64,000 bases of DNA from Mobula birostris (Eukaryota): the NCBI RefSeq assembly GCF_030028105.1, contig NC_092377.1, forward strand, positions 78,150,569 to 78,214,568, in the 5' to 3' direction. Below the pieces are notes generated by a model. The model saw only the letters and a list, made by a program, of their open reading frames with translations, was not told the origin of the DNA and ran no database searches. Position numbers and translations under genes: made by a program. This document shows, one piece after another, positions 13,700 through 22,149 of the stretch; within the stretch, counting starts at the first letter, position 1; every line of letters starts with the position of its first letter.

Positions 13700-13846
13700 T
13701 TTAAGTGTTCCGCCTGGATACGGTAGGAGGGAATGTAGCGGACAGCCCCAAAGTGTAAGGCCCTCCACCGCCACCCCCACCATCTGGCTGCAGGGCTGAG
13801 GCCGTCCGTCACGTCGCTCCATGGCGAGCGTCTGCTGTAACTGAAG
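13700..13846 (+). other. MKKS: MKKS non-coding exon 1 (5' end approximate)
   Basis: Consensus donor GAAG|GTGAGT at 13846/13847 inside the CpG island. Contains a mini-uORF MASVCCN* (13821-13844). Confidence 0.7.
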
Positions 13847-14171
13847 GTGAGTCAAGCCTGCATCGGCTGGGGGTTCCCATGCGGGATTTAACCTCGGCAC
13901 CGAAATCTCCCAACCGTCTGAGCACCGTAGTGCTGGAAAAAGGCGCTTGGTGTGTTTGTTAAAGGTGAAGGAAAACGGTAGGCGGAAGTACTCTCTGAAC
14001 TTTGTTTTGACTATCGGCCTCGACCTTCCTCTCACTGCCCGCTGAGTTCCCCACCCACCTTTCTCCTTTACGTGAAATCGTGAAATGTTTAATATGTAAT
14101 CCATCTTCATAATCTCTCTATCTGGCCTGTCGAACACCTGCCTTTACAGCACAAGCTGCAGAGTAGGGTAG

Positions 14172-15300
14172 AACACGAGGAAATCTGCAGATGCTGGAAT
14201 TTCAAGCAACACACATAAAAGTTGCTGGTGAACGCAGCAGGCCAGGCAGCATCTCTAGGAAGAGGTGCAGTCGACGTTTCAGGCCGAGACCCTTCGTCAG
14301 GACTAACTGAAGGAAGAGATAGTAAGAGATTTGAGAGGGGGAGATCCAAAATGATAGCAGAAGACAGGAGGGGGAGAGATGGAGCCAAGAGCTGGACAGT
14401 TGATTGGCAAAAGGAACATGAGAGGATCATTGGGACAGGAGGCCTAGGGAGAAGGAAAAGGGGAGGGGGGAAGCCCAGAGGATGGGCAAGGAGTTATAAG
14501 TGAGAGGGACCGAGGGAGAGAAAAAGAGAAAGAAAAAAAATTACTAATAATAAAAAATAAATAACAGATGGGGTAGGAAGGAGAGATGGGGCATTAACGG
14601 AAGTAAGAGAAGTCAATGTTCATGCCATCAGGTTGGAGGCTACCCAGACGGAATATAAGGTGGTGTTCCTCCAACCTGAGTGTGGCTTCATCTTGACAGT
14701 AGAGGAGGCCGTGGATAGGCATATCAGAATGGGAATGGGATGTGGAATTAAAATGTGTGGCCACTGGGAGATCCTGCTTTCTCTGGTGGACAGAGCGTAG
14801 GTGTTCAGTAAAACGGTCTCCCAGCCTGCGTCGGGTCTCGCCAATATATAGAAGGCCGCATCGGGAGCACCCCAGTATATCATCGCAGTATATCACCCCA
14901 GCCGACTCACAGGTGAAGTGTCGCCTCACCTGAGTGGACTGTCTGGGGCCCTGAATGGTGGTGAGGGAGTAAGTGTAAGGGGATGTGTAGCACTTGTTCC
15001 GCTTACAAGGATAAGTGCCAGAAGGGAGATTAGTGGGGAGGGATGGGGGGGGGCGAATGGACAAGGGAGTCGCGTAGGGAGCGATCCTTGCGGAAAGCAG
15101 AGGTGGGGTAGGGAAAGATGTGCTTAGTGGTGGGATCCTGTTGGAGGTGGCAGAAATTACGGAGAATTATATGTTGGACCCGGAGGCTGGTAGGGTGGTA
15201 GGTGAGGATAAGGGGAACCCTATTCCTAGTGGGGTGGCGAGAGGATGGAGTGAGAGCAGATGTGTGTGAAATGGGGGAGATGCGTTTGAGAGCAGAGTTG
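14172..15300 (-). mobile_element. Penelope-like element with GIY-YIG endonuclease fragment, in MKKS intron 1
   Basis: ORF 14594-15064: FTCESAGVIYC..CSRCGLLYIGETRRRLGDRFTEHLRS. The terminal region contains a hammerhead motif. Confidence 0.88.
14269..14304 (-). ncRNA. Minimal type I hammerhead ribozyme motif in Penelope terminal repeat
   Basis: Minus strand AGTC-CTGACGA-AGG-gtctcgg-CCT-GAAA-CG-TC-GACT: core CUGANGA and GAAA, stem I AGTC/GACT, stem II AGG/CCT, palindromic mini stem III. Confidence 0.65.
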
Positions 15301-16689
15301 TTTGCATGTACTTTCTTTATTGCTTTACCTACTTCCATAGCTACTTTCAGTAGACCATGGACCTGGACCTCAAGAATGCTTTGTATCTCAATACTATTGA
15401 TGGATCTAACATTAACTGCATACTCTCTGTTTTCATTTGATGTCCCAAAGTGTGATAACTCACACTTGCCTGGATTCAGAATCAGGTTTATTATCTCTGA
15501 TGTATGTCATAAAATTTGTTTTTTTGTGGCAGCAATGCAGTGCAAGACAAAACATTACTGTAAGTTACGATTACAAATAAATAAATAGTGCAAAAGCAAG
15601 AGAGTGTTCATGGCTTCATGGATCATTCAAAAATCTAATGGCAGAAGGGAAGAAACTATTCCAAAAATGTTGAGTGTGGGTGTTCAGGCTCCTAAACTTC
15701 CTCCCTTATGGTAGTAATGAAAAGAAGCATGTACAGGGTGGTAAGAGTTCTTAATGGTGGATGTTTCCTTTTGAAAATGGCTTCAATGGTGGGGAGCTTT
15801 GTGCCTGTGATGGAATTGGGTGAGTCTACAACCTTTTGCAGCCTCTTTCAATCCCGTGCATTGGAGCCTCCATACCAGGCGATGATACAAATAGTTAGAA
15901 TGTTCTCCATGGTGCATCAGTAACTGATCCATAACCCCCTGTATTCTGTACATAGTCCTTTATGCTGTCCACGACTCCACTAATACTAGTGTCATCTACA
16001 GACTTGCTAATCCATTCTTCTACATAGAAACCATTGCTAAATATTGCAAACATCAGAGGTCCCAGTACCAATCCTCATAGAACACTGCTGGTCATGGACT
16101 TCCAGCCAGAGTAACACCTTCCACCCCTACTCTGTCTTCTGTAGGCAAGCCGGTTCTATATCCAAGTTTGTAGTTTACCCTGGTTCCCATGCATCTTTAT
16201 GTTCTGAATTACACTACCATGCGGGATCTTTTCAAATGTCCAAATGATCATATCCACTGCCTTGCCTTCATCGAGTACCTTTGTCATCTCCACAAAATAC
16301 TTCAGTTTGTAAGGCATGGCCTGTCCTGCACAAAGCCATGCTGTCTGTCCATAACCACACCATACCTTTCCAATTCTTCTTTCTTATGTATTTGGCTGAA
16401 GCTTCGCTGGATGTGTTACTTGCATACTCTTCTACAAGTTATATTATAAAATCCGGACTTAATGATCTAAAATCAAAGTACAGAAAATTGAGGAAATTGG
16501 AAACATCCTGGCCTTTTTGAATTGTGGATTTATACTAAATAAAGGTGGTATGAAGATAGTCAAAAATGAAATATTTCTGTTTGAAGAAATCTGAATGACC
16601 TGACTTTGTAAGAAGGGTTGTTCAAAGGTAGAAAAGGCAAATACCCTTTCAAAGTCTCCTTCCTGAGGATCAACAATGCTGTACCTGAC

Positions 16690-17390
16690 AGATGTATGCT
16701 TAGCCCACTGCTCTGCAACACCTGACTGTGTGGCTAGGCATAGCTCAAATGGCATCTATAAATTTGCGATGATACAGCCATTGTTGGCAGAATCTCAGGT
16801 GGAGGCGAGAGGGTGTACGGGACCGAGATATACTAGCTAATTGAGTGGTGTTGCAGCAACAACACTGCACTCAACGTCAGTACAACTGAAGAGCCTGTTG
16901 TGGACTTCAGAAAGGATAGGACGAGTGAACATGAACCAATCCTCATAGAGGGATCAGAAGTGGAGAGAGTGAGCAGTTTCAAGTTCCTGGTTGTCAAAAT
17001 CGCAGAGAACCTAACCTGGTCCCAACATATCAATGCAGCTATCAAGGAGGCAAGGCAACATCTTTATTTCATTAGGAATTTGAGGAAATTTGGTTTGTCA
17101 CCTAAGATGCTGGAAAACTTATGCAGATGTACCATGGAGAGCATTCTGACAGGCTGCATCACTGTCTGGAACAGGGCGCGGGACAGGTGCTACTGCACAC
17201 CTCACTTTTATTATTTCTGTTTTTTTGCGCTAGTTTTAATTTAACTATGTATTGTAACTGGTTGCAGTAATTGATTTTCTTATTTATTTTTTTCTATATT
17301 ATCATGTATTACATTGTACTGCTACCACTAAGTTAACAAATTTCACAGCATATGCCGGAGATATTAAACCTGATTCAGACTCTGGTTCTG
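16690..17390 (+). mobile_element. Rex1/Babar-type LINE 3' fragment
   Basis: DFRK..EVERVSSFKFL..LTWSQH..ESILTGCITVW; tail ctgattcagactctg. Confidence 0.75.
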
Positions 17391-17482
17391 AAAGAAGAAA
17401 ATTTCAATTTTTAAGACATTGTGTTCTCAAATCATTCTTCACTCAAAAAGAAATGGTGTCACAATTATGTAGCATACAAGAA

Positions 17483-20756: not shown

Positions 20757-20909
20757 ATGAAGAATAAAAGGTGGTTACGGCAAAACTGGATTCTCGTGGC
20801 AGGACTGTCCTTATTCGGAATTCATTCAGTCACCTACTTGATGCAGAAGTTTGTAAAGAAATCAACTCAGTCAGATATAGAACTTAAGAAGAAGATTGGT
20901 GATAAATAA
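20757..20909 (+). CDS. MKKS uORF2 microprotein (50 aa; below ORF-track cutoff), homolog of human uMKKS2
   Basis: Hand translation: MKNKRWLRQNWILVAGLSLFGIHSVTYLMQKFVKKSTQSDIELKKKIGDK*. Resembles the recalled human peptide MKNTSWIRKNWLLVAGISFIGVHLGTY.., same length. Kozak agaATG. Confidence 0.88.
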   Translation: MKNKRWLRQNWILVAGLSLFGIHSVTYLMQKFVKKSTQSDIELKKKIGDK

Positions 20910-21104
20910 TACAGAAATGTCACACAGGACATCTGTGTCCAGATTTTATTCCCCAGTTCAGTTATTATGGAAATCTGCATTTAGAAATTGCTAATAATTA
21001 TTCATCACTTTAATAATATGACTGCCCTATGCAGCAAAGATATAAGCATCATACTTATAAATCAGATATGAAATATTGTATGTAAACTTTAGTTTTCTCA
21101 TAAA

Positions 21105-21110
21105 AATAAA
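21105..21110 (+). terminator. Internal polyadenylation signal between uORF2 and MKKS ATG
   Basis: AATAAA followed by T/GT-rich sequence (ttcttttaacacgggtttctgtct), ~55 nt upstream of the MKKS ATG. Confidence 0.55.
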
Positions 21111-21164
21111 AGAGTCATTCTTTAACACGGGTTTCTGTCTATAAACCTTTGCCCCACCTGAACA

Positions 21165-22149
21165 ATGTCCCGCATTGTACCGAAAGTATCATCCACATGT
21201 AGTTCTGGACCCTTAAATAGCAATGTGCTTTGTCAAGCACTTTCTATTGTCAGAGGAATTGTGGAGTCCTGTTACGGCCCTTTTGGTAGACTAAAACTAA
21301 TACATAATGCTGTTGGAGGCAACATTATAACCACATCACACTCTTCAGTCCTTTTGCGTAATCTTTCTCTGTCACATCCTGTGATAAAGCTACTAATGGC
21401 TTCTATGTGGAATCACATTTCTCGATTTACTGATTCTGGACTATTTGCAACAATTCTATGCTGTAATTTGACTGAAAGTGCAAAACAACTTAACATACCA
21501 AGCAATCACATAGTCAAAATCCAGAAAGATCTTCTGAATATTTGCATCAGCTATCTGAGTTCTGAGGATTGTAGCTGCAAAATACAAATAGATTTTAGTA
21601 ACACAAAAATGTTGCTTTCACTTGTTGGCACAGTGATAAATAAACCCACTTGCATGTTGACTATCAAAGAAACTGACTACATCAGTTCATTGGTGTTAAA
21701 AGCATTCTTTCATACAATTCCTTCAGTAATTGGAGATAACATAACCTTGGGAAAGACGTTGATTGTTCCTATTGAGGGACAAAATGTTACTGACTCCTGT
21801 GTACTTCATGGAATCCTTATAGAAATCTTTGCATCTTATTCAATGAAAATTGATACTGCAAAGTTGACATTTGGTTGTATTAAGATTGCAGTATTCAGTG
21901 TCTCCATGTCAGGAGATGTTGTTGACAGTGGGAATGGGCATTGGGAGGTGGCATCAGGTTTTTGCCCAGAAGGTGAATCGCTTGTACAGCTGCTGAAGGT
22001 GGGAGAACAGCTTGTTTGTGATCAAGTTCATCTCGTGGTCTGCCAGAAAGTAATTCATCCGGTTCTAAAACAATATCTCCAGGAGCAACATATAATAGTG
22101 GAAGATCGCCTCGGGATTGCCCTAATGGAGCCACTGGCCCAAATGACAG
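21165..22149 (+). CDS. MKKS: MKKS/BBS6 chaperonin-like protein, coding exon 1 (985 nt)
   Basis: ATG at 21165 (acaATG). Translation MSRIVPKVSSTC..SCYGPFGRLKLIHN..HPVIKLL..FTDSGLFATILCCNL..CQKVIHPVLKQYL..DRLG..MEPLAQMTG matches MKKS. Donor ACAG|GTCAGA after 22149 (phase 1). Confidence 0.96.

What the first reader, a model, noticed from the sequence alone, without database searches (positions are those of the whole stretch)
13821..21167. Polycistronic MKKS mRNA architecture conserved in an apparent cartilaginous fish
Seen: the spliced leader runs mini-uORF (7 aa), uORF1 (64 aa), an AUG-free spacer of 65-71 nt, uORF2 (50 aa), 255 nt, then MKKS. The uORF1, uORF2 and MKKS ATGs all have A at -3. Known: the human transcript has the same uORF1-uORF2-MKKS order and the uORFs repress MKKS translation. 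Inference: an operon-like vertebrate transcript retained across jawed vertebrates, with uORF2 made by reinitiation. Standard annotation would probably miss uORF2.
Basis: partly seen in the sequence, partly recalled or inferred. Interest (0 to 1): 0.7.

Follow-up and report, generated by a model that had tools for sequence, protein, structure and literature searches.

The report
Ray MKKS message carries two microproteins
In this ray, two tiny membrane-protein genes are spliced onto the front of the cilia-chaperone gene MKKS in the same order as in humans and likely make small mitochondrial proteins, an arrangement that is real and old but already known in humans and already annotated in sharks and rays.

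Summary
Spliced contigs from 7 public runs (4 organisms) join exon 1 (ends 13846), exon 2 (19071-19297, uORF1, 64 aa) and exon 3 (from 20699: uORF2, 50 aa, then MKKS). uORF1 is the orthologue of human uMKKS1/Q9HB66; uORF2 matches human uMKKS2 at 21 of 50 residues. uORF1 reaches lamprey and hagfish, uORF2 chimaera and teleosts. Corrections: both exact peptides are already in NCBI and UniRef, so annotation did not miss uORF2; acceptor 20705 was never listed; exon 1 carries three more AUGs and the 255-nt gap six more; reinitiation after a 64-codon uORF is unlikely. Best model: a microprotein-first locus. Leaky scanning and reinitiation after very short uORFs likely feed both peptides, a short poly(A) isoform likely makes most of them, and MKKS is the throttled last ORF. 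Translation, poly(A) use and single molecules were not shown. New lead: uORF1 and uORF2 share a W-x16-H-x3-aromatic membrane pattern and may be ancient paralogues, like Drosophila sloth1/2 (suggestive only). The scan has already noted this locus in a shark, an octopus and another invertebrate.

The parts
13341..13342 (-). Minus-strand splice donor (GTAAGT), likely end of the first exon of the divergent SLX4IP gene
   Evidence: Sequence; PF15744 (UPF0492) matches on the minus strand 46 kb upstream of the MKKS exon 1, over cut-off. That this donor belongs to that gene is inferred.
13441..13450 (.). GCGCATGCGC, NRF1-like element in the CpG-rich shared promoter
   Evidence: Sequence; CpG o/e 1.07-1.49 at 13300-13700; the NRF1 label is recalled, not from a call
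13459..13846 (+). Exon 1 (longest form seen in contigs; true start sites unknown), with AUGs at 13574 (28 aa), 13650 (49 aa), 13733 (1 aa), 13821
   Evidence: Contig X1 13459-13844, X9 13454-13844; X2 holds only 27 letters of it; AUG list
13821..13844 (+). uORF0, 7 codons, T at -3 and G at +4; stop 2 nt before the splice donor and 21 nt before the uORF1 AUG in the mRNA
19071..19297 (+). Exon 2 (227 nt)
   Evidence: GT..AG joints
19090..19284 (+). uORF1 = uMKKS1 orthologue, 64 aa, basic N-terminus plus one hydrophobic segment; stop 13 nt before the junction
   Evidence: 48% identity over 46 aa to Q9HB66, E 2e-16 pairwise; top Atlas cluster 'LOC128706665 homolog' 0.97; single copy in the genome search
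19167..19175 (+). Out-of-frame 2-codon ORF inside uORF1, G at -3 and G at +4
   Evidence: a role as a reinitiation launch point is inferred
19707..20698 (+). Minor alternative acceptor at 19707; contig runs on unspliced into exon 3 and puts many AUGs before uORF2
   Evidence: One contig, depth 27.8, run X1 only; 24 AUGs in 19707-20756
20699..22149 (+). Exon 3: 58 nt of spacer, uORF2, 255-nt gap, first 985 nt of MKKS, unbroken in contigs
   Evidence: (table 8)
20757..20909 (+). uORF2 = uMKKS2 orthologue, 50 aa, basic N-terminus plus one hydrophobic segment
   Evidence: Relatives in rays, sharks, chimaera; 37% to the Liparis copy; 21 of 50 identical, by eye, to the human sequence printed in PMC12313729 Table 1; single copy
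20910..21164 (+). 255-nt gap with six AUGs (20917, 20967, 21018, 21029, 21068, 21080; all ORFs end by 21085) and candidate poly(A) signals (GATAAA 20901, AATACA 20908, TATAAA 21056, AATAAA 21105)
   Evidence: use of any signal not shown
21165..33355 (+). MKKS/BBS6 CDS, 572 aa, exons 21165-22149, 24891-25072, 31928-32038, 32915-33355
   Evidence: Open, GT/AG bounded; PF00118 E 5e-38; exon 4 50% identical to a Crotalus model named MKKS chaperonin. Exons 4-6 are predicted from sequence, not from laid reads.

Best explanation
This is the ray orthologue of the human MKKS locus: one spliced leader carries two conserved microprotein ORFs (uMKKS1, uMKKS2) ahead of MKKS, and they likely make small single-pass mitochondrial membrane proteins while likely throttling MKKS. 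Shown: the ORFs, splice junctions, order, orthology and protein-level conservation. Inferred steps: (1) transcription from a CpG-rich promoter shared with SLX4IP; (2) uMKKS1 is made by ribosomes that scan past the weak exon-1 AUGs; (3) uMKKS2 is made mostly by ribosomes that never translate uORF1: they leak past its AUG, or reinitiate after the 7-codon uORF0 (stop only 21 nt before the uORF1 AUG) or the 2-codon ORF at 19167; (4) cleavage and polyadenylation in the 255-nt gap gives a short two-peptide mRNA whose stops obey the 55-nt rule (2 and 13 nt before junctions, last ORF in the last exon), likely the main source of peptide; (5) the long mRNA makes little MKKS, through leaky scanning and reinitiation past at least 6 further short uORFs, with a 79-nt AUG-free run before the MKKS start, and would be open to NMD whenever MKKS is not translated.
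For: Junctions and unbroken exon 3; contigs of 2081 (X9) and 2000 (X2) letters run from exon 1 through exon 2 to the end of exon 3. One genomic copy of each uORF, so no retrocopy explains the spliced form. Orthology. Conservation: uORF1 profile finds 35 proteins at E<=0.001, 33 of which look like true members by eye, named ones in mammals, birds, turtles, lizard, frog, teleosts, lamprey, hagfish; uORF2 67% identical to Callorhinchus; listed changes in organism F give dN/dS 0.17-0.25 for uORF2, Fisher p 0.005-0.03 (list incomplete). Linkage elsewhere: Liparis model fuses uORF1 to uORF2, Crotalus model fuses uORF1 to MKKS exons; three teleost models read uORF2 out of frame after uORF1 (24-26 of 32 codons compatible, shuffle maxima 16-19). 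Human data: uORFs repress MKKS and the leader has poly(A) signals (PMC11837024, passages, reporting Akimoto 2013); the 63-aa peptide is the main product, is mitochondrial and supports respiration (PMC13577902, passages and section 11); both tagged peptides localise to mitochondria (PMC7066179, passage). uORFs over 55 codons are predicted to block reinitiation (PMC4705651, passage). Weak hint of a short isoform: contig depth 1588-2292 over uORF2 versus 151 beyond it in X1; 261 versus 83 in X5; 2027 versus 804 in X4.
Against: No Ribo-seq, proteomics, long reads or raw reads for any ray; all runs are contigs whose RNA status is a guess, and the tool warns that contig depth cannot rank parts of a gene and that a contig across two genes shows no single transcript. 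No poly(A) loose end was listed in the gap. X2, X6 and X21 give one flat contig, so no step can be read from them. Start sites are unknown: X2's contig begins 3 nt before the uORF0 AUG, and organism B also uses another upstream exon, so uORF0 may often be absent or too near the cap. The strong AUG at 20967 is lost in organism F, so the small uORFs are not individually conserved. Hydropathy of uORF1 is modest (19-residue maximum 1.14). Akimoto 2013 itself could not be read.
Confidence: 0.65

Rival explanations
1. One reading: one long tricistronic mRNA; uORF2 is made by ribosomes that finish uORF1 and reinitiate across a tuned AUG-free spacer.
For: The spacer is 71 nt without AUG and uORF2 has A at -3; contigs run through all three ORFs.
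Against: uORF1 is 64 codons, over the 55-codon limit quoted in PMC4705651; an AUG-free 71 nt has P about 0.19 by chance; the spacer is about 49 nt in organism C; leaky scanning needs an AUG-poor path just as much.
Confidence: 0.13
2. Shared exons, separate messages: the peptides come from short mRNAs and MKKS from a different isoform (exon 2 skipped or a start inside exon 3), so no molecule is functionally tricistronic.
For: At least 13 AUGs lie before the MKKS start on the modelled long mRNA counting from uORF0; contigs can join overlapping isoforms; human microprotein-only isoforms exist and smORF and main-ORF RNA correlate poorly (r 0.15; PMC13577902).
Against: No exon-2-skipping joint and no inner acceptor in exon 3 was listed (one search's list is cut); exon 3 is unbroken from uORF2 into MKKS; human reporters show the uORFs repress MKKS in cis.
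Confidence: 0.14
3. The uORFs are kept mainly as cis-acting brakes on MKKS; the peptides have no function of their own.
For: The human MKKS uORF represses in a partly sequence-dependent way (PMC7530721, passages); C-terminal halves are poorly conserved.
Against: Conservation sits in the N-terminal membrane segment, not at the C-terminus; the human 63-aa peptide is abundant and its loss lowers respiration; an arthropod-rich cluster resembles uORF1.
Confidence: 0.06

Closest known systems
Human MKKS locus: uMKKS0, uMKKS1 (Q9HB66, LOC128706665, micro-MKKS63), uMKKS2 (V9GZ13), MKKS/BBS6 (Akimoto 2013 as reported in PMC11837024; PMC13577902)
   Same: Order of ORFs, lengths (64/50 aa versus 63/50), orthologous sequences, uORF1 on its own exon, short upstream uORF, poly(A)-like signals before MKKS.
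   Different: About 48% and 42% identity; translation, repression, poly(A) use and localisation are not shown in the ray; uORF0 homology is untested; the ray gap has six extra AUGs.
Chondrichthyan RefSeq/UniRef 'uncharacterized' proteins (Hemitrygon XP_072907389 and XP_072907393, Rhinoraja, Narcine, Cetorhinus, Mustelus, Scyliorhinus, Chiloscyllium, Pristiophorus, Callorhinchus)
   Same: Same peptides; Hemitrygon accessions for the two are consecutive.
   Different: Unnamed, and the records seen carry no statement about a shared mRNA with MKKS.
Drosophila sloth1/sloth2 (SMIM4 and C12orf73/Brawnin orthologues; PMC9681215, passages)
   Same: Works like it: two single-pass mitochondrial microproteins on one transcript with faint mutual similarity; leaky scanning proposed there.
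   Different: No sequence membership: no Pfam match for either peptide or for any of 35 uORF1 family members at a curated cut-off; the UQCC6 cluster scores only 0.83 in the Atlas; a third, unrelated long ORF follows here.

Membership tests
MKKS polycistronic locus (uMKKS1-uMKKS2-MKKS) | uORF1 orthologous to human uMKKS1 (Q9HB66) | tested here: met
   22 of 46 identical, E 2e-16 pairwise; human cluster found by the profile search; Atlas 0.97
MKKS polycistronic locus (uMKKS1-uMKKS2-MKKS) | uORF2 orthologous to human uMKKS2 (50 aa) | tested here: met
   21 of 50 identical without gaps, counted by eye against the sequence printed in PMC12313729 Table 1; no program was run on the human sequence
MKKS polycistronic locus (uMKKS1-uMKKS2-MKKS) | Downstream main ORF is MKKS/BBS6 | tested here: met
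   PF00118; 572-aa open model; exon 4 matches a model named MKKS chaperonin; SLX4IP family head-to-head (human synteny recalled)
MKKS polycistronic locus (uMKKS1-uMKKS2-MKKS) | All three ORFs on one splice path | tested here: met
   Joints and continuous contigs
MKKS polycistronic locus (uMKKS1-uMKKS2-MKKS) | All three ORFs on single RNA molecules | tested here: inconclusive
   Only assembled contigs were available
MKKS polycistronic locus (uMKKS1-uMKKS2-MKKS) | Polyadenylation inside the leader giving uORF-only mRNA | tested here: inconclusive
   Signals present, depth step in contigs of 3 of 7 runs, no poly(A) loose end listed
MKKS polycistronic locus (uMKKS1-uMKKS2-MKKS) | Upstream uMKKS0 | tested here: inconclusive
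   A 7-codon uORF and three further exon-1 AUGs exist; no human uMKKS0 sequence was seen to compare
MKKS polycistronic locus (uMKKS1-uMKKS2-MKKS) | uORFs translated, repress MKKS, peptides in mitochondria | not testable with these tools
   Needs Ribo-seq, reporters, imaging
SMIM4/UQCC5 and Brawnin/UQCC6 (sloth1/2) families | Sequence match to their profiles | tested here: not met
   No such Pfam family matched; no PDB relative at E<0.8

The most novel reading that the evidence does not exclude
uMKKS1 and uMKKS2 are ancient paralogues from a tandem duplication: a two-peptide mitochondrial operon, kept on one message to be made together, with MKKS as a throttled passenger ORF. They align without gaps over 26 columns, with W and an intramembrane H 17 residues apart and an aromatic residue 4 after the H; W6 and H23 are invariant in the uORF2 set, W7 and H24 nearly invariant in the uORF1 set, and both human peptides read H-L-G-x-Y. 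Support is weak: column-shuffle p 0.008-0.024, hhalign probability 22-30%, and in a six-frame scan of the window uORF2 ranks 2nd of 1270 other segments against the uORF1 profile (E 0.51) while uORF1 ranks 10th in the reverse scan.
Probability: 0.3. Interest if true: 0.6.

Novelty: new member of a known kind. Interest (0 to 1): 0.3.

Why it matters
It shows that the human arrangement of two mitochondrial microproteins ahead of a ciliopathy gene is intact and spliced the same way in a cartilaginous fish, so it dates at least to the first jawed vertebrates; the reviews I read say 'mammals' or do not say. That argues both peptides are real genes, including uMKKS2, which has far less published function than uMKKS1. 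The gain is small: the human locus is described, both peptides are already annotated in rays and sharks, and the scan has noted deeper cases. If the two peptides are paralogues acting together, it would give a testable reason for the shared message.

Tried and rejected
Complex prediction uORF1 + uORF2: no verdict (score 0.02, mark 0.34, alignments not used). Profile comparison A3 versus A4 discarded: A4 held the Liparis fusion whose first half is uORF1. BLASTP uORF1 versus uORF2: no alignment. Pfam and PDB sequence searches: nothing informative. Atlas for uORF2: best 0.85, unnamed, lead only. The look-up of sequencing runs: no holder on record as RNA; 7 of 24 listed runs were laid. Two of 35 profile hits (a 608-aa repeat, a 952-aa protein) were set aside as false; P0057 was dropped from the paralogy scripts for a broken N-terminus. 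Motif search for SLX4IP coding exons inside the window found none; they lie 33 kb outside it. Kozak -3 A and the AUG-free spacer were rejected as evidence. Akimoto 2013 is not held; the supplement of PMC7530721, which may give the taxonomic range of the MKKS uORF, could not be read; bioRxiv supplements naming the predicted complex IV partner are closed. No structure prediction was run: a single helix would not discriminate.
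Full report
Observation. uORF1, uORF2 and MKKS have A at -3, but so do 14 of 34 AUGs in intron 2, and an AUG-free 71 nt has a chance of about 0.19 at intron density, so neither feature is evidence.

Splicing. I laid 7 of 24 listed runs; all are assembled contigs and their RNA status is a guess. The 13846>19071 GT..AG joint is listed in 3 of 4 runs; the fourth uses a donor at 18605. The 19297>20699 joint is listed in 6 of 7 runs; organism C joins 19297 to 20724 with three letters between, read as the same splice with a shorter spacer. 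Acceptor 20705 is not listed (one search's joint table is cut at 15 of 233; one search's is whole). Exon 3 runs unbroken from uORF2 into MKKS. Records of 2081 letters (X9) and 2000 letters (X2) cover exon 1, exon 2 and all of exon 3. Each uORF has one genomic match, so a retrocopy does not explain the spliced form. A contig is not a molecule; single-molecule linkage stays unproven.

Identity. uORF1 is 48% identical over 46 residues to human Q9HB66/LOC128706665. uORF2 is identical at 21 of 50 positions, counted by eye, to the human 50-aa uORF printed in PMC12313729 Table 1 (passages). The long ORF is a 572-aa PF00118 protein in four coding exons whose exon 4 matches a model named MKKS; SLX4IP-family exons lie head-to-head 46 kb upstream, as I recall for human. 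The organism is a batoid near Hemitrygon akajei (uORF1 92%, uORF2 96%). Both exact peptides are already held by NCBI and UniRef, and uORF2 is annotated in other rays, sharks and a chimaera.

Range. A profile of four uORF1 sequences found 35 proteins; I set aside two as false. Of 20 looked up, named ones include primates, marsupials, birds, turtles, lizard, snake, frog, teleosts, lamprey ('LOC128706665 homolog') and hagfish. The Atlas adds an arthropod-rich cluster at 0.92, a lead only. uORF2 was found by search only in chondrichthyans, but a Liparis model fuses uORF1 to a 37% identical uORF2, and three teleost models continue from uORF1 into sequence compatible with uORF2 in the +1 frame (24, 26 and 24 of 32 positions; shuffle maxima 17, 16, 19). 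A Crotalus model fuses uORF1 to MKKS exons. Linkage of uORF1 to MKKS in lamprey or hagfish was not tested. Listed substitutions in organism F give uORF2 dN/dS 0.17-0.25; 7 of 36 differences of that contig part were not listed.

Mechanism. In human, the uORFs repress MKKS and the leader holds poly(A) signals (PMC11837024, passages, reporting Akimoto 2013, which is not held). The 63-aa peptide is the main product, sits at mitochondria and supports respiration (PMC13577902, passages and section 11). A preprint predicts a link to a complex IV component or assembly factor without naming it in the text (10.1101/2024.10.01.615885, passages). For the ray I infer the same. Reinitiation after uORF1 is unlikely because uORFs over 55 codons are predicted to prevent it (PMC4705651, passage). 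More likely, ribosomes split: some scan past uORF0 (T at -3) and make uMKKS1; others leak past the uORF1 AUG, or terminate at uORF0 only 21 nt before it, or at the 2-codon ORF at 19167, and start at uORF2. The uORF0 and uORF1 stops lie 2 and 13 nt before junctions, inside the 55-nt rule described in PMC3951408 (passages; it lists MKKS among predicted polycistronic genes). A short mRNA ending in the gap would be NMD-immune; the long one has the uORF2 stop 1240 nt before the next junction. Candidate signals are at 20901, 20908, 21056 and 21105. Contig depth is higher over the uORFs than over MKKS in X1, X4 and X5, unreadable in the other four, and no poly(A) end was listed; the tool says such depth cannot rank parts of a gene, so this is a weak hint.

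Paralogy lead. The two peptides align without gaps over 26 columns with matching W, V, G, S, L, I, H and Y. Shuffle p is 0.008-0.024, hhalign probability 30% and 22%. Against the uORF1 profile the ray uORF2 scores 6.4 bits, below one unrelated segment among 1270; shark copies score up to 10.2, the Liparis copy -1.5; in reverse, uORF1 ranks 10th, and the most divergent uORF1 members score best. BLASTP finds nothing. This is suggestive, not shown. Drosophila sloth1/2 is the precedent (PMC9681215, passages). A search of the scan's notes for this idea found nothing.

Novelty. Searches of the held library (MKKS+uORF; uMKKS1; uMKKS2; LOC128706665; MKKS+microprotein+complex IV; MKKS+polycistronic+zebrafish+conserved; MKKS+reinitiation+uORF; 'alternative protein MKKS'; MKKS+shark+uORF) showed no paper on the locus in cartilaginous fish; I saw listings for most and passages of 13 papers. 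PMC11837024 says 'across mammals'; PMC12679747 (passage) calls the MKKS uORF ancient without saying how far; the figure and supplement of PMC7530721 may give a wider range and could not be seen. 10.1101/017772, PMC8448870 and 10.64898/2026.03.05.709866 (passages) only cite the human case. The scan's own notes report the locus in a shark, an octopus and another invertebrate; I did not test the invertebrate claims.

Verdict. Real, expressed as spliced RNA in all likelihood, and orthologous to a described human locus; a new member of a known kind. Interest 0.3.

Noticed in passing
window 13341-13450 and G000:C9:78103775-78117574 (L003, L004): SLX4IP-family exons lie head-to-head 46 kb upstream; a minus-strand donor at 13342 and an NRF1-like motif at 13441 suggest a bidirectional promoter.
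   Followed up: partly
window 18605: Organism B (run X5) splices an exon ending at 18605, at the edge of a decayed LINE-like reverse-transcriptase fragment (label by eye), to exon 2 instead of exon 1.
   Followed up: no
window 19707-20698: Minor acceptor at 19707 in one run; would give an mRNA in which uORF2 is buried behind about 24 AUGs, in effect uORF1-only.
   Followed up: partly
window 20702-20723: Organism C lacks about 22 nt of the uORF1-uORF2 spacer (table 5c).
   Followed up: no
window 21077-21127: None of the 16 listed differences of organism F in the 255-nt gap falls in the 51 nt around AATAAA 21105; 7 of 36 differences of that contig part were not listed, so this is a hint only.
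   Followed up: partly
proteins P0026, P0028, P0029, P0042, P0048: Ab initio gene models in teleosts and a snake fuse uORF1 to uORF2 (in or out of frame) or to MKKS exons: mis-annotations that happen to record the linkage.
   Followed up: yes
window 7707-8546 (+): 279-codon open frame that reads like a retroelement integrase fragment (label by eye).
   Followed up: no
window 14000-18800: Intron 1 is packed with high-copy repeats that are abundant in the contig sets.
   Followed up: no
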